DNA from: an uncultured Anaerolineales bacterium
GTDB lineage: Bacteria; Chloroflexota; Anaerolineae; Anaerolineales; UBA11858
DNA length: 64,000 bases
NCBI GenBank assembly: GCA_964448865.1
Contig: CAYUXO010000001.1
Location: 4,747-68,746 of the forward strand
Direction: 5' to 3'
In this document: one piece after another, positions 34,189 to 54,317 of the stretch
Layout of the letters: every line of letters begins with the position of its first letter
How positions within the stretch are numbered: the stretch's first letter is position 1
Position numbers and translations under genes: made by a program
The notes under the pieces: generated by a model
Seen by the model: the letters and a program-made list of their open reading frames with translations, nothing else
Told to the model about the DNA's origin: nothing
The model's database searches: none

Positions 34189-34278
34189 TCTTTTATCCCT
34201 GAAATTCCCCTTCAATTATTTCTTTAGAAAATAATCTTTGAATTCATGTGATTTTAATCATAAAATCATGGAATTTAC

Positions 34279-34334
34279 TTGTCAGACAATTGACAGATAG
34301 GGGAGTTTTTGTTAAACTTGAAGTTGTCAGACAA
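34279..34334 (+). promoter_or_regulatory. Sigma70-like promoter (TTGACA-17-TAAACT) bracketed by two identical 11-bp palindromes TTGTCAGACAA (candidate GntR/HutC operators)
   Basis: The palindrome occurs at 34279-34289 and 34324-34334. The -35 is TTGACA (34290-34295) and the -10 is TAAACT (34313-34318). It sits 21 bp upstream of the first gene of the catabolic island. Confidence 0.55.
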
Positions 34335-34354
34335 GTCGTTACTCAGGATATACT

Positions 34355-35740
34355 ATGCCGACTCTCCTTGTTAAAAATGCCCAGGTCCTTGTTACAATGG
34401 ATAACCACCGTCATGAGATTGAGAATGGTGGTATTTTTATTAAAGACGGATTTATAGAGGCAGTAGGAAAATCTGATCAGCTTCCCTCAAAAGCAGATCA
34501 GATTCTTGATTTAAAAGGGCATATTGTGCTGCCTGGCCTTGTCAATACTCACCATCATTTTTATCAGACATTAACCCGGGTGGTACCAGATGCTCAGGAT
34601 GCAAATTTATTTAACTGGTTGAAAACTCTCTATCCAATTTGGGCCCGGATGAGGCCGGAAGATATCAGAATATCTACTCAAACTGCTCTGGCTGAACTGG
34701 CTTTATCAGGATGCACCACTGCATCTGATCATCTATATCTATTTCCCAATGGATCAAAGTTGGATGATGAAATTGAAGCAGCGCTTGAAATTGGCGTTAG
34801 ACTTCACGCGTCGCGTGGTTCCATGAGCCTGGGTGAAAGCAAAGGTGGGTTGCCTCCTGATAGTGTAGTAGAAGATGAAGATCAAATTCTTAAAGACTCC
34901 CTGCGTTTAATTGAGGCTTATCATGACAGCCAGCCAGGTTCAATGACCCAGATTGTGCTGGCTCCCTGTTCTCCGTTCAGTGTTACAGGTGATCTGATGC
35001 GTGAAAGTGCAGCTCTTGCCCGACAATATGGGGTTCAGCTGCATACCCACCTGGCCGAAACTGAAGATGAGGTCGATTTTACTATTCAGAAATTTGGTAA
35101 ACGCCCGGTAGCCTATATGGAAGAAGTTGATTGGATTGGTCCTGATGTCTGGTTTGCGCATTCGGTTTATTTGGATAAAGGGGAGATCGGAATTTACGCA
35201 GAACACGGCTGTGGCGTGGCTCACTGCCCGAGCTCAAATATGAGATTAGCGTCTGGCGCTGCTCCCATTCTGGATATGCTTGCAGCAGGTGTTAATGTCG
35301 GATTGGGTGTGGATGGCTCAGCCAGTAATGATGGATCACATCTCCTGGAAGAAACCCGCCAGGCTATGCTCCTGTCCCGGCTCAGAGCCGGTATTATGGG
35401 AGCTTCCCGCTCCGGAAAAAGTGATCAAAAAATCATGACTGCCAGAGGTGCCCTGGAACTGGCTACCATTGGTGGCGCAGAAGTTCTGGGAAGATCGGAT
35501 ATAGGTTCTCTTGAACCAGGAAAAGCAGCCGATTTCACAGCAATCAACCTGAACAGGATCGATTATGCGGGAGCACTGCATGACCCGGTAGCGGCTGTAG
35601 TATTTTGCGCTCCCGTAAAAGTAGACTATACAGTCGTAGGCGGTAAATTTGTGGTCAAGGATGGCCAGCTAACCTCACTTGATTTACCGGTCCAGATAGA
35701 AAAACACAATCAAGCAGCGGCAAGATTGTTAAATAACTAA
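34355..35740 (+). CDS. Amidohydrolase of the 8-oxoguanine deaminase / SsnA / AtzB-like group
   Basis: The N-terminus is LLVKNAQVLVTMD...GGIFIKDGFIEAVG. LPGLVNTHHHFYQTL, HTHLAET, HSVY and GVDGSASND are present. Confidence 0.7.
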   Translation: MPTLLVKNAQVLVTMDNHRHEIENGGIFIKDGFIEAVGKSDQLPSKADQILDLKGHIVLPGLVNTHHHFYQTLTRVVPDAQDANLFNWLKTLYPIWARMRPEDIRISTQTALAELALSGCTTASDHLYLFPNGSKLDDEIEAALEIGVRLHASRGSMSLGESKGGLPPDSVVEDEDQILKDSLRLIEAYHDSQPGSMTQIVLAPCSPFSVTGDLMRESAALARQYGVQLHTHLAETEDEVDFTIQKFGKRPVAYMEEVDWIGPDVWFAHSVYLDKGEIGIYAEHGCGVAHCPSSNMRLASGAAPILDMLAAGVNVGLGVDGSASNDGSHLLEETRQAMLLSRLRAGIMGASRSGKSDQKIMTARGALELATIGGAEVLGRSDIGSLEPGKAADFTAINLNRIDYAGALHDPVAAVVFCAPVKVDYTVVGGKFVVKDGQLTSLDLPVQIEKHNQAAARLLNN

Positions 35741-35775
35741 TTGGGGATTATTTTTATTTACTAGGGAGTAAATGT

Positions 35776-37584
35776 ATGACCAGAGAACAGATCAGCAAAC
35801 GCACCAGATCCCTGGTAGATGTGGCAATGGGCCGGGCAGAAGCCGATATAGTGATTCGCAACGGCCAATGGGTTTGTGTTCAGTCTGGAGAAATCATCCC
35901 GGGTATAGATATTGCCATTATTGGCGAAAGAATCGCATTTGTGGGAGAAGATGCCAGCCATACCATCGGCGAAAGCACCCGGGTGATAGATGCTGATGGA
36001 AAATACCTGGTGCCTGGGTTGCTTGACGCACACATGCATGTTGAGTCGGGAATGGTGACCATCACAGAGTTTGTGAGGGCGGTTGCTCCCCGGGGTACTA
36101 CCGGAATGTTCATAGATCCCCATGAGATTGCCAATGTATTTGGTCTCAAGGGTGTTCGTTTGATGGCTGAAGAGGCAGAAACCCAGCCTATCCATGTTTG
36201 GGTCCAGGTGCCTTCCTGCGTTCCGTCAGCACCCGGCTTGGAAACTCCCGGAGCATCCATCGGCCCGGAAGATGTTGAAGAAGCAATGAAGTGGAAAAAT
36301 ATTATTGGGCTGGGAGAAATGATGAATTTCCCGGGAGTATTCTCCAGCGATGAAAAAATGCATCTGGAGATGGCTGCCACCCGGGCAGCTGGCAAGGTGA
36401 TTGGGGGACATTATGCCTCACCTGATCTGGGAATACCCTTCCATGGTTATGTCGCGGGGGGAGCAGAAGATGATCATGAAGGCACCAGGAAAGAAGATGC
36501 GGTGGCCAGGGTTCGCCAGGGCATGAAATCCATGTTGCGCTACGGATCAGCTTGGCTCGATGTCGAAGCCCAGGTCAAGGCTATCACCGAGGACGGATTG
36601 GATTCGCGTAATTTTATACTTTGCACAGATGATTCCCATTCGGAAACGCTTGTAAATGATGGTCATATGGATCGGGTTCTGAGACACACCATTGGTCTTG
36701 GAGTTGATCCAATGACTGCGCTCCAGATGGCTACTATCAATACAGCAGAACATTTTGGGATGGCCAGGGATATGGGACAGATCGCGCCGGGTAGATTTGC
36801 AGATATCCTCTTGGTGTCAGACCTCGAGAATTTCCAGGCGGAACTGGTCATCGCCAAAGGTGAAGTCCTGGTTGAATCAGGGCAGTGGAAAATAGAGTTG
36901 CCCCCGATTTCCTATCCCGACTGGATAACTAATTCTGTGAATATGAAAAGTTCATTAACTGCTGAAAATTTCCGACTGCCTGTTGATGAAAATATATCAT
37001 CTGGTGAGTTACTGGCTCATGTGATAGGAGTTATCGAAGGTCAAGCCCCCACTAGACACCTTCAAATTCCGGTTAAGGCAGAAAATGGTGAGATACGGGT
37101 AAACCTGGAGGAAGATCTGTCAAAAATCGCTCTGGTTGAGCGGCACCAGGGAACAGGCGGGGTGGTTGTTGGATTGGTGTCCGGGTTTGGTTTAAAAGGG
37201 AAGTGTGCCATTGGCTCTACTGTTGCCCATGATTCCCATCATATGATTGTCGTTGGCACGGATGAAGGTCTAATGGCTTTGGCTGCCAACCAGCTGGCAG
37301 AGATGAATGGCGGCCAGGTAGTGGTTAAAGATGGGGTGGTGATCGGGCAGGTCGCCCTTCCTATTGCGGGACTGATGTCTAATAAACGGGCTGAAGTTGT
37401 CGCTGAAGAAGCTGCCACTGTGCTGGAAGGTTTCCGCACCTGCGGCTGCACGATTGCCAATCCTAATATGCAGCTGAGCCTGTTGGCATTGGTAGTGATA
37501 CCTTCATTGCGTATTTCTGATCTGGGGCTGGTTGATGTAGACGCCTTTTCATTTATCCCTGTTCTTGAAGGAGAAGGCTCTTGA
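35776..37584 (+). CDS. Adenine deaminase (AdeC family), paralog 1
   Basis: 602 aa. It has VPGLLDAHMHVESGM, EMMNFPGV and GHYA, plus the C-terminal AdeC domain (VERHQGTG...STVAHDSHHMIVVG). Confidence 0.75.
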   Translation: MTREQISKRTRSLVDVAMGRAEADIVIRNGQWVCVQSGEIIPGIDIAIIGERIAFVGEDASHTIGESTRVIDADGKYLVPGLLDAHMHVESGMVTITEFVRAVAPRGTTGMFIDPHEIANVFGLKGVRLMAEEAETQPIHVWVQVPSCVPSAPGLETPGASIGPEDVEEAMKWKNIIGLGEMMNFPGVFSSDEKMHLEMAATRAAGKVIGGHYASPDLGIPFHGYVAGGAEDDHEGTRKEDAVARVRQGMKSMLRYGSAWLDVEAQVKAITEDGLDSRNFILCTDDSHSETLVNDGHMDRVLRHTIGLGVDPMTALQMATINTAEHFGMARDMGQIAPGRFADILLVSDLENFQAELVIAKGEVLVESGQWKIELPPISYPDWITNSVNMKSSLTAENFRLPVDENISSGELLAHVIGVIEGQAPTRHLQIPVKAENGEIRVNLEEDLSKIALVERHQGTGGVVVGLVSGFGLKGKCAIGSTVAHDSHHMIVVGTDEGLMALAANQLAEMNGGQVVVKDGVVIGQVALPIAGLMSNKRAEVVAEEAATVLEGFRTCGCTIANPNMQLSLLALVVIPSLRISDLGLVDVDAFSFIPVLEGEGS

Positions 37585-38309
37585 TCAAGGATAATAACGT
37601 TTCCAGGTCTTTACATGAACAGCTCAGCACCTTGATTGCAGACACAGAATCTGGAGAGCAGCTGCCTTCAGAACCCAGGCTGGCAGAAGATTTGGGAGTT
37701 TCCCGAGCTACTCTGAGGGAAGCAATGCGGACTTTCGAAACCCGGGGATTGCTGGAGCGGAAACAAGGCGTGGGGACCTTTGTCATTCACCCAATTCACG
37801 TTTTCGACAGCGGATTGGAGCACCTAATCAGTCTGGAAACTATTGCTGACCATCTTGGTTTGGTAGTTTCAATGGGAGAGCTGAAAGTATGCCAAAAACT
37901 GGTTGATTTTGACCTTTCCCAGGAATTAGGATTACCGGAGAGCGAAAAGATCATTCATGTTTCGAGGGTGATCCAGGCAGACAATAAACCAGTAGCATAC
38001 CTGGAGGATAACCTGCCCATTGATGTGATTAGTGAAGAGGAAGTAAAGTATCACTTCACAGGTTCTGTTCTGGATCTGTTGATCAAACGGGATGATATTC
38101 CGCTGGCAAGTTCAAAATGTGACATAAGTGCCACTGGTGCCACTCCAGACCTGGCAGCAGCGCTGGAAATTCAAGTGAACGATCCCCTGCTGGTTTTTTC
38201 ATCATTGTTGTTTTCTACCCGGGGCAGGATCATTGATTCTTCATTCAGTTATTTTATTCCCGGGTATTTTCATTTTCATATTGTCCGCCGGGTAGGTTAT
38301 CAAACCTAA
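37581..38309 (+). CDS. GntR-family transcriptional regulator, HutC/UTRA subfamily
   Basis: The N-terminal wHTH is LPSEPRLAEDLGVSRATLREAMRTFETRGLLERKQGVGTFV. A C-terminal UTRA-like effector domain is present. The TTG start overlaps the upstream stop. Confidence 0.85.
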   Translation: MIKDNNVSRSLHEQLSTLIADTESGEQLPSEPRLAEDLGVSRATLREAMRTFETRGLLERKQGVGTFVIHPIHVFDSGLEHLISLETIADHLGLVVSMGELKVCQKLVDFDLSQELGLPESEKIIHVSRVIQADNKPVAYLEDNLPIDVISEEEVKYHFTGSVLDLLIKRDDIPLASSKCDISATGATPDLAAALEIQVNDPLLVFSSLLFSTRGRIIDSSFSYFIPGYFHFHIVRRVGYQT

Positions 38310-38413
38310 AGCGGTTATGTCAGGAGGAAAACAAATAATATAAATCACCTATCGAAAAACATAGACGACAATCAAATCAAGCATATAGGATTATTTTTCA
38401 AAGGAGTACGATC

Positions 38414-39367
38414 ATGAGAAGTTTTGTAGGACGTGACATCATATCATTGAAGGATATTGAACGACATGAATTTGAACGAATTTTTGAAGTTGCCAAGAAG
38501 TTGGCACCAATCGCTCAAAATCGCAAGAATGTGGATTTGTTAAAAGATAAAATCATGGTGACTGCTTTTTACCAGCCGTCCACCCGCACCCGCCTGGCTC
38601 ACGAATCAGCAATGCTTCGCCTGGGCGGTAAAGTAACTGGTTTTTCTGATGCCAAGATGACTCGCGCTGGTGACTTCTATATGGAGTCCATCAAGGACAC
38701 TTTCAAAATGCTCGAAAATTATGGCGATGTGATCGTTATGCGCCACTTCCAGAAAGGTGCTCCTCACGAAGCAGCCAAATGGGTTAGCATTCCGATCATT
38801 AACGGTGGAGATGGATGGGGAGAACATCCTACCCAGATCCTGACCGATCTTTATACTATTCTGACCGAGAAAGGTCGTCTTGACGGTCTGAAGTGGGTTG
38901 CAGTTGGTGATATGAGGATGCGCACTATGCACTCCCTGGGACATGCCTTAACCCAGTACGACTGCCCAATCACCTTTATCTCTCCCAAAGACATGCAGCT
39001 TCCTGATGAATACCGGGAAGACTTCAAACGCAACAGCCTGAACTTCACTGAGGGTGATGATGTTCGCGAAGTTATAGCTGACGCAGATGTTATTCTGGTT
39101 GAACCTGTTGTGCAGCCGGATTACACCAAATCCCGCGACGAACGGGATGGCGATGTCGCTTTGACACCTCCGGAATTCCAGATTACCAAAGAATTGCTGG
39201 AAACCAAGGCTAAATCTGATGCGGTTCTGCTGCACTCCTTGCCCCGCATGGATGATATTCCTCCGGATGTCGATCAGACCCGCTGGGCTCGCTACTGGAA
39301 AGAAGGATTTAATGGCGTTGTGATGCGCATGGCTCTGCTGGCCCTGGTTCTGGGTGCAGAAGAGTAA
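38414..39367 (+). CDS. Carbamoyltransferase, ATCase-like but divergent in the second-substrate loop
   Basis: STRTR (YQPSTRTRLAHE), RH, GEHPTQ, GDMRMRTMHS and HSLPRMDDI are present. The usual ATCase S-x-KGE-x-x-DT segment is replaced by SDAKMTRAGDFYMESIKDT. Confidence 0.7.
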   Translation: MRSFVGRDIISLKDIERHEFERIFEVAKKLAPIAQNRKNVDLLKDKIMVTAFYQPSTRTRLAHESAMLRLGGKVTGFSDAKMTRAGDFYMESIKDTFKMLENYGDVIVMRHFQKGAPHEAAKWVSIPIINGGDGWGEHPTQILTDLYTILTEKGRLDGLKWVAVGDMRMRTMHSLGHALTQYDCPITFISPKDMQLPDEYREDFKRNSLNFTEGDDVREVIADADVILVEPVVQPDYTKSRDERDGDVALTPPEFQITKELLETKAKSDAVLLHSLPRMDDIPPDVDQTRWARYWKEGFNGVVMRMALLALVLGAEE

Positions 39368-39470
39368 AAAAACGATAGATCAATTCTCGGCAGACTGACT
39401 CCGATCGATCTGCCGGGAATTAATTAAATGTTCAGGTGTCCGCATTCTGAACGGAAATAAGGAGATAACC

Positions 39471-40451
39471 ATGATAACTGATTTACGAGGTCGCGATTTA
39501 ATTGGCGATCTGGATTTTACAAAAGAAGAAGTTGAGACCGTTCTCGAGGTTGCCTGGGATCTTAAAAAGAAACGGGCATTAGGTGAACGGCATGCCTTGC
39601 TTCAGGATAAGACCCTCTGTATGTTATTTTTCTTTTCAAGTACCCGAACCAGGGCATCTTTTGAGTCTGGCATGGCTCAGCTTGGTGGGCATGCAGCCTT
39701 TTTGGAAAGCCGCACCACCCAGGTTTCCCACGGGGATACTGAAAAAGAACTGGGAGAGATCCTGGGCCGATATTTTGACGGCATTGCTATCCGCCATGTT
39801 GATTGGGGAGTAGGCAATCAATATATCAATAACGTAGCCTCAGCATCCCGGTCGCCTGTCTTAAATATGCAGTGTGAGGTTTACCACCCCCATCAGTGTC
39901 TGGCAGACATTATGACCATATTTGAGAAAAAAGGCCCCAATCTGCGTGGAAAGAAAATTGTGATTTCTTGGGCTTATGCCTCTTCCTACCTGAAACCTAT
40001 CTCTGTTCCCCAATCCCTGATCCTGCAAATGCCCCGCTTTGGCCTGGATGTCACCCTGGCTCATCCACCAGAATTCAAATTAATGCCTGAGATTATGGAG
40101 CAGGCCCGAGCCCAGGCAAAGATATATGGCGGAAAATTTGAAGTTGTTGATGATATGAAAGAAGGGTTTAAGGATGCGGATATTGTGTATGCCAAATCCT
40201 GGGGACCTTTACTGACAACCCAGGATCCGGAAGAAGGCAAGAAGATCCAGGATAAATACAAAGATTGGATCACTGATTCCAAGAAAATGGCCCTGGCTGA
40301 TAAAGATGCGATCTACATGCACCCGCTGCCAGCAGATCGGGATGTAGAAGTCACCAGTGAAGTGATGGATGGTCCCCAGTCAGTGGTATTCGACCAGGCT
40401 GAAAACAGAATGCACGCCCAGAAAGCAGTCATGGCTCTGACCATGCGCTAG
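39471..40451 (+). CDS. Carbamoyltransferase, OTCase/YgeW-like
   Basis: SSTRTRASFE, HPHQCLAD and HPLPADR are present. The atypical ISWAYASSYLKPISVPQ and YAKSWG segments resemble what I recall of the YgeW-type subgroup. This was not verified. Confidence 0.7.
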   Translation: MITDLRGRDLIGDLDFTKEEVETVLEVAWDLKKKRALGERHALLQDKTLCMLFFFSSTRTRASFESGMAQLGGHAAFLESRTTQVSHGDTEKELGEILGRYFDGIAIRHVDWGVGNQYINNVASASRSPVLNMQCEVYHPHQCLADIMTIFEKKGPNLRGKKIVISWAYASSYLKPISVPQSLILQMPRFGLDVTLAHPPEFKLMPEIMEQARAQAKIYGGKFEVVDDMKEGFKDADIVYAKSWGPLLTTQDPEEGKKIQDKYKDWITDSKKMALADKDAIYMHPLPADRDVEVTSEVMDGPQSVVFDQAENRMHAQKAVMALTMR

Positions 40452-40460
40452 GAGAGTAGT

Positions 40461-41417
40461 ATGGAAAAAGAAAAGAAAGTTGCTGTTGTCGCGATTGGCG
40501 GAAATTCCCTGATCAAATCCAAACAGCAGCAAACCGTTCAGGACCAGTACAAAGCCGCCCAAGAGACAGCTTTACACCTGGTGGACATGATTGAAGCCGG
40601 CTGGGTTATCGCTATTGGTCACGGCAATGGTCCCCAGGTTGGATTTATTCTGCGGCGCTCTGAGATTGCCCATAAGGTTGAGGGTATGCATGAACTTCCC
40701 CTTGATGTTTGTGGGGCAGACAGCCAGGGAGCGATTGGTTACTCTTTGCAGCAGAACATTCAAAACGAATTGAAAAAACGAGGCATCAATAAACCTGTGG
40801 CCACTGTGATCACCCAGGTCAGGGTTGATCCAAATGACCCTGCCTTTCAGACACCTGCCAAACCAATCGGAACCTTCATGGAAGAAGATGAAGCCCAGAA
40901 AAGAAAAGAAGAATTGGGTTGGGACATTGTCGAAGATGCCGGTAGGGGCTGGAGACGGGTGGTAGCTTCCCCTCTACCGGTAGAAATCATGGAACTTGAC
41001 GCGATCAAAGCTTTGATTGAAAGTGGTGTTATCACCATCACAGTTGGCGGCGGCGGCATTCCTGTGATTGAAACTGAGGCCGGTGTGATCGGCACCGCCG
41101 CAGTGATCGACAAGGATTTTGCCTCGGCATTTCTTGCCAATGAGATCAATGCTGATATGCTGTTGATTTCAACTGCGGTCGAGAAAGTATCCTTGAATTT
41201 TGGCAAACCTGATCAGGTAGATGTTGATCAGATGACAGTGGCGGAAGCCAAAGCATACCTGGATGAAGGGACACACTTTGCCAAAGGTTCCATGGAACCC
41301 AAGATCAGAGCGATTGTCAGCTTCCTGGAGCAGGGCGGTAAAGAAGCCCTGGTCACCAATCCTGAAAATATCGGACGAGCCCTCAAAGGCGAAACAGGTA
41401 CACGGATTATTCCATAA
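40461..41417 (+). CDS. arcC: Carbamate kinase
   Basis: VVAIGGNSL, GHGNGPQVG, GGGGIPV and the amino-acid-kinase fold are present. The protein is 318 aa. Confidence 0.85.
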   Translation: MEKEKKVAVVAIGGNSLIKSKQQQTVQDQYKAAQETALHLVDMIEAGWVIAIGHGNGPQVGFILRRSEIAHKVEGMHELPLDVCGADSQGAIGYSLQQNIQNELKKRGINKPVATVITQVRVDPNDPAFQTPAKPIGTFMEEDEAQKRKEELGWDIVEDAGRGWRRVVASPLPVEIMELDAIKALIESGVITITVGGGGIPVIETEAGVIGTAAVIDKDFASAFLANEINADMLLISTAVEKVSLNFGKPDQVDVDQMTVAEAKAYLDEGTHFAKGSMEPKIRAIVSFLEQGGKEALVTNPENIGRALKGETGTRIIP

Positions 41418-41598
41418 CATTCAGATTTATAAGCTTGGATGGACATAAGTTATAAGAAGATATCCTTCTTTAGGACGAAAAGAAATATTCAAGTATACTT
41501 ATGTTATCCAAGTAACGACACAAAATAAAAAAGGAGGCTTTTCTCAATAGTAATGCAGGAAAAGAACCATTGAAATTCCAATGTATAGAGGAGAAAAA

Positions 41599-42864
41599 AT
41601 GAGAAAGAAAAGTCTATGGTTAGTGGTAAGTCTGATGGTGATTGCGGCATTTGTCTTCACTGCCTGCCAGCCTGCGCCTGCTACGGAAGCACCCAAGGAA
41701 GAAGAGGCTGTGGTAGAAGAAGAGATGGAAGAAGAGGAAGCCGAAGGCGGCTTGCAGATTCCTGACGTTGAGGAAGGAAAATTCAATGTCGCCATAGTGA
41801 TGCTCAGCAACCATGATGATGGTGGCTGGTCGCAGGCACAGTGGGAAGGTATTAACTACCTCGAGGACAATCTGGACGGCGTGCATACTTCTTACCTGGA
41901 ATTGGTGGCAGAAGGTGCTGACTCCGAGCAGGTATTCCGCGCTCTGGCCCGTAAGGGCTTCGACTTGATCTTCGGTGGATCCTTTGGTTATATGGATTCC
42001 ATGGAAGTTGTCGCTGAGGAATTCCCCGAGATTGGTTTTGTTCATATTTCTGGTTACAAATTCAATGGAACCAACTTCGGCAACTTGTTTGGCGAAATGG
42101 AAGTGATGAAATATGTAGCCGGTATGATCTCGGGTTCCCGGGCCAAGGCAGATGGCGCCACCCGCGTTGGTGGTATGGCCACATTCCCCATCCCCGAAGA
42201 ATTCCGCTTGTTTAATGCCTTTGCATTGGGTGTTCAGGAGACCTGCCCCGAATGTGATGTTGACATTCGCTGGATCTTCACCTGGCACGATCCCATTGTT
42301 GAACGAGAAGGATCTGATTCCTTGTTCGATGCTGGCTCCCACGTTGTGATAACCGGAGCAGATACCCCGGCTTCCGCTTTAGCAGCAGCAGACCGCGAAG
42401 GTGTTTATGGTATCACCTATGACTGGGTTGGCTCCTGCACAATAGATGAGTGCCTGACCGCTCCTTACTGGGTTTGGGGACCAGTATTCGTTGGTGTTAC
42501 AGAACAGGTTATGGCTGGAACCTATCCATACATGGCCGATTACTTTGATGCCTCCACCGGCGGCGTTGGCCTGTACGGTTTGATGGAAGGACAGGAAATG
42601 CAGCCTGGTGTCGCCAGCCTTCCCGCTGAGGATCTGGCCAAAATTCAAGCTGTAATGGCTTCTGTTGCAGCAGGTGAATTCGATCGTTTTGATGTGTTTG
42701 CAGGACCCATCGTGGATATTGACGGCAACATTGTTGTTCCGGATGGCGAATTTATGACCCAGGCAGATATTGACCAGTTTGCGCCCGGCGCACCTGGTTT
42801 TGAAGCCACCTATGGTATGTACTGGTGGAATCAGAATATCGCAGCTGACCTGCCTGACCTCTAG
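41599..42864 (+). CDS. BMP-family (PnrA-like) ABC transporter substrate-binding lipoprotein
   Basis: ORF 41581..42864. ATG 41599 follows AGAGGAG. The signal plus lipobox is MRKKSLWLVVSLMVIAAFVFTAC, followed by an acidic linker. The BMP pattern is DGGWSQA...GFDLIFG... Confidence 0.8.
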   Translation: MRKKSLWLVVSLMVIAAFVFTACQPAPATEAPKEEEAVVEEEMEEEEAEGGLQIPDVEEGKFNVAIVMLSNHDDGGWSQAQWEGINYLEDNLDGVHTSYLELVAEGADSEQVFRALARKGFDLIFGGSFGYMDSMEVVAEEFPEIGFVHISGYKFNGTNFGNLFGEMEVMKYVAGMISGSRAKADGATRVGGMATFPIPEEFRLFNAFALGVQETCPECDVDIRWIFTWHDPIVEREGSDSLFDAGSHVVITGADTPASALAAADREGVYGITYDWVGSCTIDECLTAPYWVWGPVFVGVTEQVMAGTYPYMADYFDASTGGVGLYGLMEGQEMQPGVASLPAEDLAKIQAVMASVAAGEFDRFDVFAGPIVDIDGNIVVPDGEFMTQADIDQFAPGAPGFEATYGMYWWNQNIAADLPDL

Positions 42865-42873
42865 ATCTCACTG

Positions 42874-42906
42874 ATTTGGGTGACCAGAATATCTGGTCAC
42901 CCAAAT
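42874..42906 (+). promoter_or_regulatory. Perfect 15-bp stem hairpin between the SBP and ATPase genes (intra-operon stabiliser/attenuator)
   Basis: ATTTGGGTGACCAGAataTCTGGTCACCCAAAT. No T-run follows, so it is probably not a full terminator. Confidence 0.6.
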
Positions 42907-42969
42907 TCACCAGCAATTATTCCATTATTTTATATAACGCCAGATTAATCTCATACAAAGTGGTGGCTT

Positions 42970-44520
42970 ATGGTAAATGAACTTAACACCTCGGACCATG
43001 TAGTACTTATGAGGTCCATCACAAAACGATTTCCAGGTGTGATTGCCAATGACCAGGCTGATTTTGATCTTCGCAAAGGAGAGGTCCATGCTTTGTTAGG
43101 GGAAAATGGAGCTGGAAAAAGCACCCTGATGAATGTGTTGGCCGGTTTATACCGTGCGGAGAGCGGATCCATTTTTGTTCATGGCAAACAGGTTAATTTC
43201 GGGTCCCCCAGAGAAGCCATCAATGCCGGAATCGGCATGGTCCACCAGCATTTTATGCTGGTTCCGTCCCAATCAGTGACAGAAAATATACTTCTGGGAT
43301 TGAGTGAACCCCGTTTCCGAATGCGATTATCAGAATTTAATAAGAAGGTTGCTGACATAGCAGAACAATATGGATTGCACGTTGATCCTGATGCAAAGAT
43401 CTGGCAGCTTTCAGTCGGCGAGCAGCAGAGGGTTGAAATTCTAAAGATGCTTTACCGGGGAGCGGATGTGTTGATCATGGATGAACCTACAGCTGTGCTT
43501 GCTCCTACTGAAATCTCAGAATTATTTAATACTCTACGCTCAATGACCGATCAGGGCAAATCGATTGTGTTCATCAGTCACAAGCTCCAGGAAGTGATGG
43601 AGATCTCTGACCGGGTTACTGTTCTGCAGAAAGGAAAAGTATCTTCCAGCGGGATATACACCAAGGATGTATCGAGGGCTGAATTGGCGCATCTTATGGT
43701 CGGCCGGGAAGTGGTTTTCCGGGTGGAAAAGAAAGAAGTTCAAGCAGGAGAAACAGTTCTTGATGTAAAAGGCTTGAAAGCTATTAATGATAAGGGCATT
43801 CAGTCATTGAATGGTGTCAGTTTAAATGTTCGCCAAGGCGAAATTGTTGGATTGGCAGGTGTGGCTGGTAATGGACAGAACGAACTTGCTGAAGCCCTGG
43901 TTGGCTTAAGGGAAGTTACAGAAGGATCTATATCAGTAAATGAAAAAGATATCACCAATAAACCTGTCAAATTGGGCATCCGTCATGGTATATCATTGAT
44001 TCCAGCGGACCGAACCCTGGTGGGAACAGCTCCTAATCTAAGTGTGACCGATAACATGATCATGAAAAATTATGATCAACCACCAATTTCAAAGGGTTGG
44101 AGGGTGCTATCATCTGTAGCAGAGGATTATGCTTCGGAACTAAAAGAAGCTTATGACATCATTGTGCCATCTATAAATACTTCGGTCAGACTATTATCGG
44201 GGGGGAATCTTCAAAAAGTTATTCTTGCCAGAGAAATCTCCAGTGAACCAAAGTTAATGGTTGCTGTGCAGCCTACCAGGGGATTGGATGTTGGCGCAAT
44301 TGAGGGGGTGCAAAAGCTTCTTTTATCTCAACGAGAGTCCGGTGCTGCAATCTTACTGATATCAGAAGAACTCGAAGAATTATTAACCTTAAGTGATCGG
44401 ATTTATGTGATTTATGAAGGTGAGATTATGGGAGAAATCAGTGATGGAGATATCGATAAGATCGGCCAGATGATGACCGGTACTCCTCTCGAGCAAATTG
44501 AAGCAGAAGGAGGGAAATAA
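42970..44520 (+). CDS. ABC transporter ATP-binding protein with two fused NBDs (sugar/nucleoside type)
   Basis: GENGAGKST, LSVGEQQRVEI and LIMDEPT lie in the first half. GVAGNGQNEL, LSGGNLQKV and the D-loop lie in the second half. Confidence 0.9.
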   Translation: MVNELNTSDHVVLMRSITKRFPGVIANDQADFDLRKGEVHALLGENGAGKSTLMNVLAGLYRAESGSIFVHGKQVNFGSPREAINAGIGMVHQHFMLVPSQSVTENILLGLSEPRFRMRLSEFNKKVADIAEQYGLHVDPDAKIWQLSVGEQQRVEILKMLYRGADVLIMDEPTAVLAPTEISELFNTLRSMTDQGKSIVFISHKLQEVMEISDRVTVLQKGKVSSSGIYTKDVSRAELAHLMVGREVVFRVEKKEVQAGETVLDVKGLKAINDKGIQSLNGVSLNVRQGEIVGLAGVAGNGQNELAEALVGLREVTEGSISVNEKDITNKPVKLGIRHGISLIPADRTLVGTAPNLSVTDNMIMKNYDQPPISKGWRVLSSVAEDYASELKEAYDIIVPSINTSVRLLSGGNLQKVILAREISSEPKLMVAVQPTRGLDVGAIEGVQKLLLSQRESGAAILLISEELEELLTLSDRIYVIYEGEIMGEISDGDIDKIGQMMTGTPLEQIEAEGGK

Positions 44521-44521
44521 G

Positions 44522-45655
44522 ATGGCTGAGATCCCTTCAAATAAATCTGTTTCTGGTTGGAAATTCCCATTCCGTATCAAAATAGAGAACAGGATTGATA
44601 ATCCTCCCAAATGGCTGACACCAGTTCTTTCCTTAGGTGCAGTTGTTATCGCGTTATTAATTGGTGCCGTGGTGATCTGGTTGGGGGGTGGAAAACCCTG
44701 GGCAGCGTATACACACATCGCTAAGTATTCCCTCGGAAGTGTTGGTGTTCTCTCCGATACTTTGGTCAAGGCCATCCCGCTCATGCTGGTGGGTCTGGCT
44801 TGTTCAATAGCTTTCCGGATGAAACTCTGGAATATCGGGGCTGAGGGACAATTCTTCCTGGGTGCCTTCGGTGCCAGTATGGTGGTACTGCTGCCGGTGC
44901 TACCTATGGAAGCGCCCAAGTGGCAGTTTATCCTGGTCGCGGCAATATTCGGAATGATCTTTGGTGCTGCCTGGGGTTTTATACCGGGATTCCTGAAGGC
45001 TCGCTACAATGTCAATGAGATCATCTCCACCCTGATGATGAACTACATAGCAATCGAGTGGAATAACTATTTTATTTATGGAGTTTGGTCTGAGAGTGGA
45101 TTCCAGATGTCACGCATGTTCCAACGCAATGCCTGGCTGCCGCGTCTGTCGGACCTGGCCAAGAAATGGCCCTTCTTTAGTGGATTAACTACTCACATGG
45201 GTCTGGTATTCGCAATAATTGCTGCCATCATCCTGTGGGTTGTCTTGAATAAAAGCAGATGGGGATACGAAATTAGATTAATTGGCGATAATCCCAAAGC
45301 GGCAGAGTATGCAGGAATATCCATCAAAAAGAATATTGTGCTGGTTATGATGGTATCTGGTGCTTTGGCTGGATTGGCTGGATCATCTGAAATCATGGGG
45401 GTTGTTCACCGATTACAGGGACACATTTCCCCGGGGTATGGTTTTACCGGGATAATCATTGCCTGGCTGGCTAAACTCAATCCGCTGGCAGTGATCCTGG
45501 TATCGATTTTATTTGGGGCATTGATCCTGGCAGGAAGAGAGGTACAACCGGCTGGGATACCAACCTTAATCCAGGGACTAATTATGGTTTCCTTGATCGC
45601 GAGTGATTTCTTCTATCGAAATCGGGTCAGGATCATCCGGAAGGTGGAGGGTTAA
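44522..45655 (+). CDS. ABC transporter permease (BPD_transp_2 type)
   Basis: ORF 44498..45655. ATG 44522 follows GAAGGAGGG. It is polytopic and carries the NIGAEGQ motif. Confidence 0.85.
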   Translation: MAEIPSNKSVSGWKFPFRIKIENRIDNPPKWLTPVLSLGAVVIALLIGAVVIWLGGGKPWAAYTHIAKYSLGSVGVLSDTLVKAIPLMLVGLACSIAFRMKLWNIGAEGQFFLGAFGASMVVLLPVLPMEAPKWQFILVAAIFGMIFGAAWGFIPGFLKARYNVNEIISTLMMNYIAIEWNNYFIYGVWSESGFQMSRMFQRNAWLPRLSDLAKKWPFFSGLTTHMGLVFAIIAAIILWVVLNKSRWGYEIRLIGDNPKAAEYAGISIKKNIVLVMMVSGALAGLAGSSEIMGVVHRLQGHISPGYGFTGIIIAWLAKLNPLAVILVSILFGALILAGREVQPAGIPTLIQGLIMVSLIASDFFYRNRVRIIRKVEG

Positions 45656-45657
45656 TT

Positions 45658-46629
45658 ATGAATTTTATACTTATCTTGGCATCCGGTGTTGCAACTGGAA
45701 CCGTATTATTATATGCCACCGTAGGTGAAATATTTGCCGAGCGGTCCGGTGTATTAAACCTGGGTGTGGAAGGCATGATGTTAGTTGGGGCTATGTTTGC
45801 CTATAAGACTGCTGCTGCGACAGGTAATGCCTGGGTTGGTCTTCTTGTGGCAATGCTGGCTGCGGGTTTAATAAGTCAAATCCATGCTTTCATAACCATT
45901 ACCTTGCAGGCGGATCAGGTAATATCCGGCCTGGCACTCAACTTCCTTGCGGTCGGAATCAGCCTGGTTCTGGGAGAAGGTTTGACCAGCCTGCGGGATG
46001 TTGTTCCCCAACTGCCCAAGTTTTCCATTCCAGGACTGGCACAGATACCCTGGCTTGGGGGCATTTTCTTTAATAACCAAAGTATCATGGTTTATATTGG
46101 TTTCTTGTTCATACCCCTGGCCTGGTATTTTATCAACCGCACCCGGCCGGGTATGCATCTAAGGGCAGTAGGTGAATATCCTGCGGCTGCCGATACACTC
46201 GGTATCCGGGTATACCTGCTCCGGTATATGTATGTGTTTGTTGGTGGGTTACTGGCAGGAGTAGCAGGAGCTACCATCAGTCTTTCCATTTCACCTGGAT
46301 GGTTCGGTGGTTTAACAACAGCTGGTCAAGGCTGGATTGCCATTGGCCTGGTGATTTTTGCCCAGTGGAACCCGATCAGGGCTGCCTTCGGTGGATTCAC
46401 ATTTGGCGCGCTCAGGCGATTGGTGCTGGATCTCCAGGGGCCTGCCATGATACTTGGCATATCAAATCCCTTTTATACCAACATCAATTACGGCTTTTTC
46501 CTGAAAATGATACCTTATATCTTCACAGTTGTTTTCCTGGTGATCGGCATCCGTGAAGCGAACCGAAAACGAATCGGGACGCCAGCAGCTCTGGGTTTAC
46601 CCTATATCCGCGGTCAGCGCGGTTTGTAA
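45658..46629 (+). CDS. ABC transporter permease, second subunit
   Basis: It is polytopic, has the GVLNLGVEGMM motif, and starts 2 nt after the previous stop. Confidence 0.85.
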   Translation: MNFILILASGVATGTVLLYATVGEIFAERSGVLNLGVEGMMLVGAMFAYKTAAATGNAWVGLLVAMLAAGLISQIHAFITITLQADQVISGLALNFLAVGISLVLGEGLTSLRDVVPQLPKFSIPGLAQIPWLGGIFFNNQSIMVYIGFLFIPLAWYFINRTRPGMHLRAVGEYPAAADTLGIRVYLLRYMYVFVGGLLAGVAGATISLSISPGWFGGLTTAGQGWIAIGLVIFAQWNPIRAAFGGFTFGALRRLVLDLQGPAMILGISNPFYTNINYGFFLKMIPYIFTVVFLVIGIREANRKRIGTPAALGLPYIRGQRGL

Positions 46630-48401: not shown

Positions 48402-49268
48402 ATGCAGGAATTTGGTTATCACAGACCGAGGACAATCTCAGAGTTAAAAGAACATCTTAGCCAATCAGGAGCACGAGTGTTGGCGGGTGGCACTGACATT
48501 ATTCCCAAAATGCGCCAGGGAAAATTTTCTGCGCCAATATTGATCGATACCAGCAGGATCGATTCACTTCATTTTATAGAAGATCTGGGTAATGAAATTG
48601 TTTTAGGTGCGCTTATTACTCACCAGGAAATTGCCGATTCTCCCCTGCTGTCTAATATTAATCCCGGGTTAAAGAAAGCAGCGGAGAGCATTGGTTGTGT
48701 TCAAACACGTTCAAGGGGAACATTAGGTGGCAACATAGCGAACGCATCTCCTGCCGCAGATACAATCCCGCCTCTATTGACATTTGATACTTCAGTTCTC
48801 CTTCAAAGCCTCACTGGTGAGCGCAGGCTCGCGCTTGAGGACTTTATCAAAGGACCAGGTGAGACGGATCTACAGATGGGAGAGTTTATTCACAGTGTAA
48901 GTTTTTCACCACTGAAAGGAAAATGGGGGTCTGATTTTATCAAAGTCAGAAAACGAAATGGCATGGCTATCTCAGTAGTCAATGTTTCGGCAGCTGTTGT
49001 TTTGGATGATGAGGGTTTATTCAAAGATGTCCGGATCGCATTGGGAGCTGTTGCTCCGGTAGTATTGCGCCTTCGGAAATCTGAAGAATTCCTACTGGGG
49101 GAAAAGCCTGCTCCTGAGATTTATGACAAAGTAGCCGAGGTCAGTCAGGAAGAAATCAATCCAATTTCGGACATCAGGTCATCAGAGGCGTATCGCCTGC
49201 ATTCAGCAGGGGTGATCCTGCGCCGGGTACTAGAGTCAGCTGTGGAACAGGCCAGGGGGAGAAATTAA
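48402..49268 (+). CDS. Molybdenum hydroxylase (xanthine dehydrogenase family) FAD-binding subunit
   Basis: AGGTDIIP, GTLGGNIANASPAADT and the CO-dehydrogenase flavoprotein C-terminal pattern are present. Confidence 0.85.
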   Translation: MQEFGYHRPRTISELKEHLSQSGARVLAGGTDIIPKMRQGKFSAPILIDTSRIDSLHFIEDLGNEIVLGALITHQEIADSPLLSNINPGLKKAAESIGCVQTRSRGTLGGNIANASPAADTIPPLLTFDTSVLLQSLTGERRLALEDFIKGPGETDLQMGEFIHSVSFSPLKGKWGSDFIKVRKRNGMAISVVNVSAAVVLDDEGLFKDVRIALGAVAPVVLRLRKSEEFLLGEKPAPEIYDKVAEVSQEEINPISDIRSSEAYRLHSAGVILRRVLESAVEQARGRN

Positions 49269-54229: not shown

Positions 54230-54317
54230 CAGGGCAAGGAATAATTTGAATATTAACAATAATATCTGCAGGATTTTATTATTCTAATTTACTTGATTGT
54301 TTGGAAAGGAAAATAAC

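What the first reader, a model, noticed from the sequence alone, without database searches (positions are those of the whole stretch)
38414..41417. Two non-orthologous carbamoyltransferases sit directly upstream of a carbamate kinase
One enzyme is ATCase-like. It keeps STRTR, HPTQ and H-x-LPR, but the Asp-binding S-x-KGE loop is replaced by SDAKMTRAGDFYMESIKDT. The other is OTCase/YgeW-like, with the unusual segments SWAYASSYLKPISVPQ and YAKSWG. Pairing with carbamate kinase implies catabolic phosphorolysis of one or two carbamoylated compounds to carbamoyl phosphate, and then ATP. I cannot read the substrates from the sequence. A catabolic ATCase-like enzyme would be notable.
Basis: partly seen in the sequence, partly recalled or inferred. 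Interest (0 to 1): 0.6.

Follow-up and report, generated by a model that had tools for sequence, protein, structure and literature searches.

The report
Two carbamoyltransferases ending anaerobic urate breakdown
An aspartate-carbamoyltransferase look-alike that can no longer bind aspartate, a compact YgeW-type carbamoyltransferase and the genome's only carbamate kinase form a conserved Chloroflexota operon that most likely strips both ureido groups off the last intermediate of anaerobic uric-acid breakdown and turns them into ATP.

Summary
The three ORFs and every quoted motif are present, and the genome has a separate canonical pyrB (beside pyrC and pyrF) and a separate argF.

The ATCase-like protein (pATC) keeps the whole carbamoyl-phosphate site. 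It has lost the aspartate side-chain binders: K84 to D, R229 to P, Q231 to V, R234 to D. It belongs to the "pseudo-ATCases" of Barba et al. 2013. It forms a tight orthologous group (62-94% identity, versus 42% or less to PyrB) that always sits beside the second enzyme (OTCl).

OTCl is a short YgeW homologue. It shares the YgeW-only motifs and tracks SsnA and YgeY across Chloroflexota.

The genome also holds XdhD/YgfM, an F420-dependent reductase, SsnA and HyuA, but no YgeW, YgeY, YgeX or uricase.

Best reading: this is the tail of the reductive (2,8-dioxopurine) urate pathway. OTCl does the YgeW step. pATC cleaves the second ureido group by phosphorolysis, the step E. coli does by hydrolysis with YgeY. 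That would give two carbamoyl phosphates, and so two ATP.

In a 301-genome sample, 10 of the 14 OTCl-positive genomes lacking YgeY carry pATC. The other four are incomplete or contaminated. pATC and YgeY also co-occur in eight genomes.

Substrates are inferred, not shown. This is a new variant of a known kind.

The parts
34279..34334 (+). Promoter-like site (TTGACA-17-TAAACT) flanked by two exact copies of the palindrome TTGTCAGACAA. Likely the operator of the GntR/UTRA regulator and the start of the operon.
   Evidence: Exact copies occur only at 34279 and 34324 in the window. This is the best promoter-like match in 34000-42000, and no + strand terminator-like site lies between pATC and the end of the carbamate kinase gene; the only + strand site in the scan is inside the Ade1 gene at 37338-37356.
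34355..35740 (+). TRZ/ATZ-type amidohydrolase, closest to 8-oxoguanine deaminase. Probably a feeder deaminase.
   Evidence: NF006055 scores 681 bits (cut-off 532). It lies upstream of the triad in 42 of 80 loci.
35776..37584 (+). Adenine-deaminase-family amidohydrolase, copy 1.
   Evidence: TIGR01178 scores 513 bits (cut-off 472). Present in 41 of 80 loci.
37581..38309 (+). GntR/UTRA (HutC-type) transcription regulator.
   Evidence: Pfam GntR + UTRA. Present in 60 of 80 loci.
38414..39367 (+). pATC, a pseudo-ATCase. The carbamoyl-phosphate site is intact and the aspartate side-chain site is rebuilt. Proposed to cleave an N-alpha-ureido group of a diaminopropionate derivative by phosphorolysis.
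39378..39425 (+). Stable intergenic hairpin between the two carbamoyltransferase genes, with no U tract.
   Evidence: Free energy -30.1 kcal/mol, z-score -3.5. Not repeated elsewhere in the window.
39471..40451 (+). OTCl, a compact YgeW-type (AOTCase-like) carbamoyltransferase. Proposed counterpart of E. coli YgeW.
40461..41417 (+). Carbamate kinase, the only one in the genome. 50% identical to E. coli YqeA.
41581..46629 (+). BMP/PnrA-type ABC importer: binding protein, ATPase and two permeases.
   Evidence: Follows the triad in about 30 of 80 loci.
46633..48387 (+). Adenine-deaminase-family amidohydrolase, copy 2.
   Evidence: TIGR01178 scores 488 bits.
48402..51992 (+). Xanthine-dehydrogenase-type molybdenum hydroxylase: FAD, 2Fe-2S and Mo subunits.
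   Evidence: The Mo subunit is 32% identical to E. coli XdhA.
52019..53260 (+). Threonine-synthase-like fold-type-II PLP enzyme. It is the genome's best match to diaminopropionate ammonia-lyase and a candidate substitute for it.
   Evidence: Present in 28 of 80 loci.
54297..55778 (+). A 493-aa fold-type-II PLP enzyme (PLP2) that travels with the triad.
   Evidence: Orthologues occur in 38 of 301 genomes, including 18 of 19 pATC-positive genomes.
56615..58036 (+). HyuA-like D-hydantoinase/dihydropyrimidinase.
   Evidence: TIGR02033 scores 520 bits (cut-off 393). 39% identical to E. coli HyuA.

Best explanation
The three genes are the energy-conserving end of the reductive (2,8-dioxopurine) uric-acid pathway in its Chloroflexota, F420-dependent form.

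Upstream enzymes open both purine rings to give 2,3-diureidopropionate. These are XdhD/YgfM, an F420-dependent LLM reductase and SsnA on contig C24, plus HyuA in the window.

OTCl is a short YgeW homologue with an AOTCase-like pocket suited to an N-alpha-acylated substrate. It removes one ureido group by phosphorolysis, most likely the 3-ureido group.

pATC is built like ATCase, which handles N-alpha-carbamoyl amino acids. Its binders for the beta-carboxylate are replaced by Asp, Pro and Val. It removes the other ureido group, most likely the 2-ureido group, from 3-amino-2-ureidopropionate or from the diureido compound itself. The product is 2,3-diaminopropionate.

The carbamate kinase converts both carbamoyl phosphates to ATP. 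This gives two ATP per urate instead of the one obtained in E. coli, where YgeY hydrolyses the second group.

Shown here: gene content, orthology groups, residue changes, co-occurrence. Inferred: the substrates, the regiochemistry and the order of the two steps.
For: 1. Extra paralogues. Canonical pyrB and argF lie elsewhere in the genome.

2. pATC catalytic site. S52, T53, R54, T55, R105, H134, Q137, R167, L267 and P268 (E. coli numbering) are kept in 86 of 86 family members. S80 is R, K84 is D, R229 is P, Q231 is V, E233 is P and R234 is D. The AF2 model (pLDDT 95) matches PALA-bound ATCase 1ml4 at TM 0.88.

3. pATC is a discrete group. Identity is 62-100% in 19 of 301 sampled genomes, and the next-best hit is PyrB at 42% or less. 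The clade has 99% SH-aLRT support, inside the RAGD-loop pseudo-ATCases.

4. OTCl resembles YgeW. It is 36% identical to E. coli YgeW and 31% to ArgI. It is sister to YgeW with 99% support. It shares YgeW-only motifs. No true YgeW is in the genome.

5. The pathway is present. SsnA (476 bits), XdhD-like, YgfM-like, F420 biosynthesis genes and an LLM oxidoreductase are on C24. HyuA is in the window. The Chloroflexota F420 variant was noted in 10.1101/2025.05.19.654654. In loci L050 and L102 the LLM/SsnA/XDH/HyuA/PLP genes sit directly around the triad.

6. Missing genes. No YgeY (best 29 bits), no YgeX, no uricase and no OHCU decarboxylase were found in this 91.6%-complete genome.

7. Phyletic pattern in 301 genomes. 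OTCl is in 60, tracking SsnA and YgeY. Of the 14 OTCl-positive genomes without YgeY, 10 have pATC, from five lineages. The other 4 are 58-84% complete or 8% contaminated. pATC is next to OTCl in 18 of 19 genomes; the exception is at a contig end.

8. Precedent. The pseudo-ATCase UGTCase cleaves allantoate by phosphorolysis, and allantoate is the one-carbon-shorter analogue of 2,3-diureidopropionate (PMC4016543). YgeW plus YqeA make ATP from 2,3-diureidopropionate (10.1101/2025.04.24.650524).
Against: pATC is not a simple replacement for YgeY. In 8 of 46 YgeY-positive, OTCl-positive genomes, and in 21 of 80 related loci, the order is GntR-YgeY-pATC-OTCl-CK. So the two may have different substrates.

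Six pATC-positive genomes (families f40 and f17) lack a canonical SsnA. They have only a 41%-identical relative nearby.

The two 2025 preprints disagree on which ureido group YgeW removes; this disagreement is noted in PMC12990295. The regiochemical assignment here therefore rests on analogy.

Alignment of the 80s loop contains an indel, so the K84-to-D equivalence is less certain than the R229-to-P one.

No enzyme assay, no expression data and no ligand modelling were available.
Confidence: 0.55

Rival explanations
1. pATC serves a parallel branch and acts on another ureido compound. Candidates are N-carbamoyl-beta-alanine or beta-ureidoisobutyrate from reductive pyrimidine breakdown (with the HyuA-like enzyme acting as dihydropyrimidinase), or allantoate/ureidoglycine as in UGTCase. 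It would share the carbamate kinase with OTCl.
For: pATC co-occurs with YgeY in one operon in many genomes, which argues against pure redundancy. The HyuA-like protein passes the model shared by D-hydantoinases and dihydropyrimidinases. A catabolic beta-alanine transcarbamylase has been speculated (PMC4581275). UGTCase is the only characterised pseudo-ATCase (PMC4016543).
Against: pATC is never found away from OTCl. The neighbourhood is purine-related throughout: Ade-like enzymes, XDH, 8-oxoguanine-deaminase-like enzyme, and SsnA/LLM in L050 and L102. No uricase, OHCU decarboxylase or allantoinase-type hit was found in the genome. The UGTCase signatures HPLA and AIA are not present; here they are HSLP and PVV. 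R167, which binds the alpha-carboxylate, is kept, and that fits an alpha-amino acid better than beta-alanine.
Confidence: 0.2
2. pATC is a true but divergent catabolic aspartate carbamoyltransferase. It would degrade N-carbamoyl-aspartate, for example from orotate or dihydroorotate fermentation.
For: It passes the NCBIfam ATCase model (255 bits, cut-off 237) and is named aspartate carbamoyltransferase by public sources. Its fold matches ATCase.
Against: The residues that hold the aspartate beta-carboxylate (K84, R229, Q231) are replaced in all 86 family members, two of them by residues of opposite or no charge. No dihydroorotase or orotate gene lies in the cluster. A canonical PyrB exists elsewhere.
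Confidence: 0.05
3. pATC is a second, partly redundant enzyme for the same bond as OTCl, or a non-catalytic partner of it.
For: The two genes are always adjacent. pATC is unusually conserved: 11 clusters against 24 for OTCl at 86% identity in the same loci.
Against: All carbamoyl-phosphate and catalytic residues are invariant, which argues for catalysis. The two second-substrate pockets are built on different templates, ATCase-like versus AOTCase/YgeW-like. Genomes with OTCl and YgeY alone are common, so OTCl does not need pATC.
Confidence: 0.1
4. The cluster is anabolic. The kinase would make carbamoyl phosphate and the transferases would build a carbamoylated product.
For: Transcarbamylase equilibria favour carbamoylation. 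Diaminopropionate carbamoyltransferases exist in antibiotic biosynthesis (PMC4581275).
Against: The operon has a GntR/UTRA repressor-type regulator, an uptake ABC system, deaminases and a Mo hydroxylase. It has no biosynthetic tailoring or export genes. Its homologues YgeW and YqeA are shown to be catabolic and ATP-forming (10.1101/2025.04.24.650524).
Confidence: 0.05

Closest known systems
Pseudo-ATCases of Barba et al. 2013 (PMC4016543), in particular subgroup 2 (Nocardioides sp. JS614; function unknown) and subgroup 1 (UGTCase Rxyl_2847 of Rubrobacter xylanophilus)
   Same: An ATCase paralogue that coexists with a genuine PyrB. STRT and HPTQ are kept and RxQ is lost. The H265-P268 motif is altered (HSLP here, H[ST]LP in subgroup 2). 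As in subgroup 2, it lies next to a ygeW homologue with xdh genes and hyuA nearby. As in subgroup 1, it lies next to a carbamate kinase in a purine-catabolic cluster.
   Different: The RxQ position reads PVV, not AIA (subgroup 1) or GX[SC] (subgroup 2). The family is a separate, tightly conserved Chloroflexota clade. I could not obtain the 2013 sequences, so orthology with subgroup 2 or 3 is untested. The proposed substrate is a ureido derivative of diaminopropionate, not allantoate.
YgeW/YqeA step of the reductive (2,8-dioxopurine) urate pathway of E. coli and Clostridium sporogenes (bioRxiv 10.1101/2025.04.24.650524; 10.1101/2025.05.19.654654)
   Same: A YgeW-type carbamoyltransferase is followed by a carbamate kinase and linked to XdhD, SsnA and HyuA. 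ATP is made from a ureido group. The kinase is 50% identical to YqeA, and OTCl is 36% identical to YgeW with shared signature motifs.
   Different: OTCl is 70 residues shorter, lacks three YgeW insertions and fails the YgeW model (202 bits against a cut-off of 500). A second, ATCase-like transferase is present. This genome has no YgeY or YgeX. The reductase is an F420-dependent LLM enzyme instead of YgfK.
Aspartate carbamoyltransferase catalytic chain (PyrB), e.g. Pyrococcus abyssi 1ml4 and E. coli
   Same: Same fold (TM 0.88), about 37-41% identity, identical carbamoyl-phosphate site, and R167 kept.
   Different: K84, R229, Q231, E233 and R234 are replaced. The 80s loop is rebuilt as T-R-A-G-D-F-Y. 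There is no pyrI and no pyrimidine gene nearby.
Arginine deiminase and agmatine deiminase pathways (catabolic OTCase or PTCase plus carbamate kinase)
   Same: The same logic applies: phosphorolysis of a ureido group to carbamoyl phosphate, then substrate-level phosphorylation.
   Different: Here two different transferases feed one kinase, and the carbamoyl donors come from a purine skeleton.

Membership tests
Aspartate carbamoyltransferase (PyrB, TIGR00670) | Whole-protein HMM score above the curated cut-off | tested here: met
   255.3 bits against a cut-off of 236.95. The genome's real PyrB scores 374.
Aspartate carbamoyltransferase (PyrB, TIGR00670) | Aspartate-binding residues K84, R229 and Q231 (RxQxER motif) | tested here: not met
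   They are D87, P231 and V233, invariant or nearly so in 86 family members. All 22 canonical ATCases in the same alignment have K84, and 20 of 22 have R229 and Q231.
Aspartate carbamoyltransferase (PyrB, TIGR00670) | Carbamoyl-phosphate site (S52 T53 R54 T55, R105, H134, Q137, L267 P268) | tested here: met
   All kept in 86 of 86 members, except L267 (83 Leu, 3 Phe).
Aspartate carbamoyltransferase (PyrB, TIGR00670) | Sole ATCase of the genome, or linked to pyrimidine biosynthesis genes | tested here: not met
   A canonical pyrB lies next to pyrC and pyrF on C126.
Pseudo-ATCase (Barba et al. 2013, PMC4016543) | STRT and HPTQ kept, RxQ lost, H265-P268 motif altered, paralogue of a genuine PyrB, branching with ATCases | tested here: met
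   STRT, HPTQ, HSLP, PVV. The tree places it inside the ATCase side, among about 30 representatives with the same R-A-G-D loop; support for that larger grouping is only 81-89.
Pseudo-ATCase subgroup 1 (UGTCase) | HPLA at H265-P268 and AIA/AIS/SIA at R230-Q232; allantoinase nearby | tested here: not met
   HSLP and PVV. No allantoinase-type hit was found apart from HyuA and PyrC.
Pseudo-ATCase subgroup 2 (Nocardioides type) | H[ST]LP and GX[SC]; adjacent ygeW homologue, xdhABC and hyuA | tested here: inconclusive
   The HSLP motif and the gene context match. GX[SC] does not (PVV). The reference sequence was not obtainable, so no direct comparison was made.
Pseudo-ATCase subgroup 3 (marine type) | HSLP and VXP; Na+ symporter and asparaginase nearby | tested here: inconclusive
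   HSLP matches. 'VQP' occurs two residues downstream of the aligned RxQ position, so the match depends on the alignment. The gene context does not match.
YgeW knotted carbamoyltransferase (TIGR03316 / NF005538) | HMM score above cut-off | tested here: not met
   202 bits against 500, and 211 against 453. Three YgeW insertions/tail are missing.
YgeW knotted carbamoyltransferase (TIGR03316 / NF005538) | YgeW signature motifs: H-G-[ED]-T 80s loop, N-[LM]-Q-C, W-A-Y-x-x-S-Y-x-K-P-x-S-V-P-Q loop, Y-x-K-S-W | tested here: met
   Alignment with E. coli YgeW. The motifs are conserved across 75 OTCl sequences.
YgeW knotted carbamoyltransferase (TIGR03316 / NF005538) | Trefoil knot | not tested
   The model's best fold match is the knotted AOTCase 3kzk, but the knot-forming loop 171-174 has pLDDT below 50. 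Topology was not computed.
YgeW knotted carbamoyltransferase (TIGR03316 / NF005538) | Adjacent carbamate kinase, and co-occurrence with SsnA, HyuA and YgeY | tested here: met
   CK lies 9 bases downstream. OTCl is in 60 of 301 genomes, tracking SsnA (56) and YgeY (48-59).
Carbamate kinase (TIGR00746) | HMM score above cut-off | tested here: met
   376 bits against 358. 50% identical to YqeA.
Reductive urate (2,8-dioxopurine) pathway gene set | XdhD/YgfM, dearomatising reductase, SsnA, HyuA, YgeW, YgeY, YgeX, carbamate kinase | tested here: inconclusive
   XdhD, YgfM, SsnA, HyuA and CK are present. YgfK is replaced by a candidate F420 LLM reductase. YgeW is replaced by OTCl. YgeY and YgeX were not found. 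The activity of the substitutes is untested.

The most novel reading that the evidence does not exclude
pATC is a previously undescribed transcarbamylase specificity: an N-alpha-carbamoyl-2,3-diaminopropionate (or 2,3-diureidopropionate) carbamoyltransferase, evolved from ATCase by charge reversal of the side-chain pocket. It would make anaerobic urate breakdown in Chloroflexota yield two ATP per purine by substrate-level phosphorylation. It would also assign a function to the orphan 'pseudo-ATCase next to ygeW' arrangement noted in 2013.
Probability: 0.45. Interest if true: 0.7.

Novelty: new variant of a known kind. Interest (0 to 1): 0.55.

Why it matters
The reductive urate pathway was worked out only in 2025, and in gut bacteria. 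Its published form conserves energy from one of the two ureido groups and discards the other by hydrolysis.

This finding suggests that a widespread group of environmental anaerobes has added an ATCase-derived enzyme that can capture the second group as well. The group is Anaerolineae and relatives, and the pattern scan that found them hit its 600-stretch limit (579 of the 600 encode a relative). That would double the ATP yield of the step.

It gives a concrete, assayable candidate function to a pseudo-ATCase subfamily that public databases name aspartate carbamoyltransferase. It shows how ATCase specificity can be retargeted by a few charge changes. It may also help settle the open disagreement over which ureido group YgeW-type enzymes cleave.

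For annotation, it flags a systematic misnaming of both genes.

Tried and rejected
1. Simple replacement of YgeY by pATC. I expected complementary distribution, but 8 sampled genomes and 21 of 80 loci have YgeY directly upstream of pATC. The claim was softened to 'can stand in for YgeY'.

2. A decayed pATC in genomes with YgeY-OTCl only. No remnant was found in the 750-bp gap of G019.

3. A fusion protein in high-GC relatives, suggested by open frames of 677-810 aa. The extra 400 residues have no domain, so these are read-through frames of GC-rich DNA.

4. Contexts of more distant pseudo-ATCase representatives (P0128, P0133, P0142, P0129, P0135, P0137). The contexts were unrelated or the contigs too short, so they gave no help with function.

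5. Clostridial xanthine to 4-ureido-5-imidazolecarboxylate route. I considered it for the ureido substrate. It is not supported, because the SsnA/XdhD/LLM/HyuA set fits the reductive urate route.

6. Expression. No RNA holder was listed for this DNA, so no reads were laid.

7. The intergenic hairpin as a REP element. It is not repeated in the window.

8. A tree including AOTCase, SOTCase, PTCase, UGTCase and the Nocardioides protein. Their sequences could not be obtained, so only E. coli PyrB, ArgI and YgeW served as named references.


Full report
**1. What is there.**

Three + strand ORFs lie at 38414-39367 (317 aa, here pATC), 39471-40451 (326 aa, OTCl) and 40461-41417 (318 aa, CK), separated by 103 and 9 bases. 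pATC and OTCl both carry the two carbamoyltransferase Pfam domains, and CK is an amino-acid-kinase fold protein. CK passes the carbamate kinase equivalog TIGR00746 (376 bits, cut-off 358).

pATC scores just above the NCBIfam ATCase cut-off (255 against 237). OTCl is below every curated cut-off: OTCase 259/306, N-acetylornithine CTase 259/288, YgeW 202/500.

**2. They are extra paralogues.**

The assembly is 2.7 Mb in 198 contigs and 91.6% complete. It has four carbamoyltransferase genes. One is a canonical PyrB, which scores 374 bits, has the K84 loop and RVQKERF, and lies beside pyrC and pyrF. Another is a canonical ArgF at 390 bits. CK is the only carbamate kinase in the genome.

**3. The neighbourhood.**

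The genes sit in a run of + strand genes:
- an 8-oxoguanine-deaminase-like amidohydrolase;
- an adenine-deaminase-family enzyme;
- a GntR/UTRA regulator;
- pATC, OTCl and CK;
- a BMP-type ABC importer;
- a second adenine-deaminase paralogue;
- a three-subunit xanthine-dehydrogenase-type enzyme;
- a threonine-synthase-like PLP enzyme, a GT2 and a second PLP enzyme;
- a HyuA-like D-hydantoinase.

The best promoter-like site lies upstream of the first gene. It is bracketed by two exact copies of a palindrome that occurs nowhere else in the window. No + strand terminator-like site lies between pATC and the end of CK; the only + strand site in the scan is inside the Ade1 gene at 37338-37356.

**4. 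Link to the reductive urate pathway.**

Two 2025 preprints describe anaerobic urate breakdown. The route runs from 2,8-dioxopurine through a dearomatising reduction, ring opening by SsnA and HyuA to 2,3-diureidopropionate, removal of one ureido group by YgeW (phosphorolysis, with ATP made through carbamate kinase YqeA), hydrolysis of the other by YgeY, and finally YgeX (10.1101/2025.04.24.650524; 10.1101/2025.05.19.654654). The second preprint notes that Chloroflexota clusters carry an F420-dependent luciferase-family enzyme in place of YgfK.

This genome fits that description. Contig C24 carries:
- SsnA (476 bits, cut-off 455);
- an NADPH:F420 reductase and cofC, cofD and cofE;
- an LLM-class F420 oxidoreductase;
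- a YgfM-like FAD subunit;
- an XdhD-like protein, 36% identical to E. coli XdhD.

Identities to the E. coli proteins are HyuA 39%, SsnA 35% and CK-YqeA 50%.

Not found in this genome: YgeW above cut-off (OTCl is the best hit), YgeY (best 29 bits), YgeX (the best hit is the window's threonine-synthase-like enzyme at 49 bits), uricase and OHCU decarboxylase.

**5. OTCl is a compact YgeW.**
- It is more similar to E. coli YgeW (36% identity, 199 bits) than to ArgI (31%, 142 bits).
- It groups with YgeW at 99% SH-aLRT against the two OTCases in a quick ML tree.
- It shares the motifs that set YgeW apart from OTCases: the H-G-[ED]-T loop, N-[LM]-Q-C, the loop W-A-Y-x-x-S-Y-x-K-P-x-S-V-P-Q and Y-x-K-S-W.
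- It lacks three YgeW insertions, which explains the low HMM score.
- The AF2 model (pLDDT 86) best matches N-acetylornithine carbamoyltransferase and Pyrococcus OTCase.

**6. pATC is a pseudo-ATCase.**

Barba et al. 2013 (PMC4016543) defined pseudo-ATCases as ATCase paralogues that keep STRT and HPTQ but lose RxQ. One of them, UGTCase, cleaves allantoate by phosphorolysis next to a carbamate kinase. Another, in Nocardioides, lies next to a ygeW homologue, xdhABC and hyuA, and its function is unknown.

pATC fits the general definition. In an alignment with E. coli PyrB, the carbamoyl-phosphate site and R167 are kept in all 86 family members. The changes are S80 to R, K84 to D, R229 to P, Q231 to V, E233 to P and R234 to D.

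The rebuilt 80s loop (T-R-A-G-D-F-Y) is shared by about 30 other 50%-identity cluster representatives that also lack RxQ.

Within that clade, pATC forms a tight, well-supported group (99%). The AF2 model (pLDDT 95) matches PALA-bound ATCase at TM 0.88.

pATC does not carry the UGTCase motifs. Its relation to the 2013 subgroups 2 and 3 could not be settled without their sequences.

**7. Distribution.**

The best 80 are all Chloroflexota-type loci at 74-94% identity. In those loci, OTCl follows pATC in 73 and CK follows in 66, and the rest are mostly truncated by contig ends. The AH/Ade1/GntR genes precede in about 42. The importer, PLP enzymes, GT2 and HyuA follow in many. In L050 and L102, the LLM, SsnA, XDH, HyuA and PLP genes directly surround the triad.

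In an even sample of 301 Chloroflexota genomes:

| Feature | Genomes |
|---|---|
| pATC orthologues (62% identity or more; next best is PyrB at 42% or less) | 19 |
| OTCl (48% identity or more) | 60 |
| SsnA above cut-off | 40 |
| YgeY above cut-off | 48 |

pATC is adjacent to OTCl in 18 of 19 genomes; the exception is at a contig end.

**8. The test of 'pATC replaces YgeY'.**

The simple version failed. Eight sampled genomes and 21 of 80 loci have the order GntR-YgeY-pATC-OTCl-CK.

A weaker pattern holds. Of 14 OTCl-positive genomes with no YgeY above cut-off, 10 carry pATC, drawn from five family- or genus-level lineages. The other four are 58%, 73% or 84% complete, or 8% contaminated. Among 46 OTCl-positive, YgeY-positive genomes, only 8 carry pATC.

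So every well-assembled genome in the sample with the YgeW-type enzyme has at least one of YgeY or pATC. Relatives are not independent, so this is suggestive rather than statistical.

Genomes with YgeY-OTCl only show no pATC remnant.

Six pATC-positive genomes lack a canonical SsnA but have a 41%-identical relative, an XDH and the PLP2 enzyme next to the pair.

**9. Mechanistic reading.**

ATCase and UGTCase act on N-alpha-carbamoyl groups next to a carboxylate. pATC keeps the alpha-carboxylate binder R167. It replaces the residues that hold the aspartate beta-carboxylate with acidic or neutral ones. That suits a side chain carrying an ammonium or a ureido group, as in 3-amino-2-ureidopropionate or 2,3-diureidopropionate.

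OTCl and YgeW share with N-acetylornithine carbamoyltransferase the Y-x-K-S-W motif in place of the OTCase D-x-x-x-S-M-G. That suits a substrate whose alpha-nitrogen is acylated and whose distal ureido group is cleaved.

The coherent order is therefore:
1. OTCl removes the 3-ureido group.
2. pATC, or YgeY where present, removes the 2-ureido group.
3. A PLP enzyme deaminates diaminopropionate.

This matches the regiochemistry of 10.1101/2025.04.24.650524. It does not match that of 10.1101/2025.05.19.654654, and the disagreement is acknowledged in PMC12990295. The reverse order, with pATC acting first to give albizziin, is not excluded.

All of this is inference from analogy and distribution. 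No assay exists.

**10. Last step.**

YgeX-like genes (470 bits or more) occur in only 4 of the 60 OTCl-positive genomes. The 493-aa PLP enzyme of the window has orthologues in 38 of 301 genomes, including 18 of 19 pATC-positive ones. Together with the threonine-synthase-like enzyme, it is the obvious candidate for the diaminopropionate-consuming step.

**11. Prior knowledge and novelty.**

Already known:
- carbamoyltransferase plus carbamate kinase as an ATP-yielding module;
- the YgeW/YqeA step;
- pseudo-ATCases, including one catabolic member;
- the adjacency of a pseudo-ATCase to a ygeW homologue in one actinobacterium.

Neither 2025 preprint mentions an ATCase-like enzyme. 'Pseudo-ATCase' occurs in only one paper of the searchable library.

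New here:
- delineation of a large, tightly conserved Chloroflexota pATC family bound to a compact YgeW homologue;
- its placement in the F420 variant of the reductive urate pathway;
- the charge-reversal pattern in the side-chain pocket;
- the phyletic evidence that it can take the place of YgeY.

I rate it a new variant of a known kind, of moderate interest and directly testable.

**12. Limits.**
- The genome is a fragmented MAG, so absences are 'not found'.
- The tree is a quick ML search with few named references.
- The 80s-loop alignment has an indel.
- No RNA data were available.

Noticed in passing
L017 (G000 contig C24) 1-13821: The upstream half of the pathway lies on another contig: XDH FAD subunit, a fused FeS/Mo XDH, SsnA, NADPH:F420 reductase, cofE/cofD/cofC, an LLM-class F420 oxidoreductase, a YgfM-like subunit and an XdhD-like protein. 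F420 biosynthesis genes are embedded in a purine-catabolic cluster.
   Followed up: partly
window 52019-53260 and 54297-55778: Two fold-type-II PLP enzymes travel with the triad. YgeX was found at 470 bits or more in only 4 of the 60 OTCl-positive Chloroflexota genomes sampled. PLP2 orthologues occur in 18 of 19 pATC-positive genomes. They are likely substitutes for diaminopropionate ammonia-lyase, or may carry out a different final step.
   Followed up: partly
window 35776-37584 and 46633-48387: Two adenine-deaminase-family paralogues lie in one cluster, and both pass TIGR01178. Copy 1 accompanies the triad in 41 of 80 loci and copy 2 in only 4. One may have a substrate other than adenine.
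   Followed up: no
window 39378-39425: A stable hairpin (-30 kcal/mol, z-score -3.5) with no U tract lies between the two carbamoyltransferase genes. It is not repeated elsewhere in the window. It could be an mRNA-processing or stability element.
   Followed up: partly
window 34279-34334: Two exact copies of TTGTCAGACAA, 45 bases apart, bracket the best promoter-like site. They are the only exact copies in 64 kb and are probably the operator of the GntR/UTRA regulator at 37581-38309.
   Followed up: partly
L027 and L045: Contigs labelled 'Candidatus Heimdallarchaeota' (122 kb) and 'Candidatus Eisenbacteria' (2 Mb) carry the triad at 93% and 77% identity to the window. They are probably mis-binned or mislabelled Chloroflexota DNA.
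   Followed up: no
loci L024-L103: pATC is more conserved than its neighbour OTCl in the same genomes: 11 against 24 clusters at 86% identity. It stays at 74-78% identity across Anaerolineales, Caldilineae and Ardenticatenaceae, which is unusually strong constraint for an accessory enzyme.
   Followed up: partly
L108 9794-11965 and relatives G245, G253: In GC-rich relatives the pATC reading frame stays open for 677-810 codons upstream. The extra part has no Pfam domain, so it looks like a stop-free frame rather than a fusion.
   Followed up: yes
window 27870-29921 (- strand): A 683-aa amidohydrolase. It is the second-best SsnA-model hit in the genome (227 bits) and has about 240 residues C-terminal to the amidohydrolase domain with no Pfam match. 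It lies just upstream of the gyrB region.
   Followed up: no
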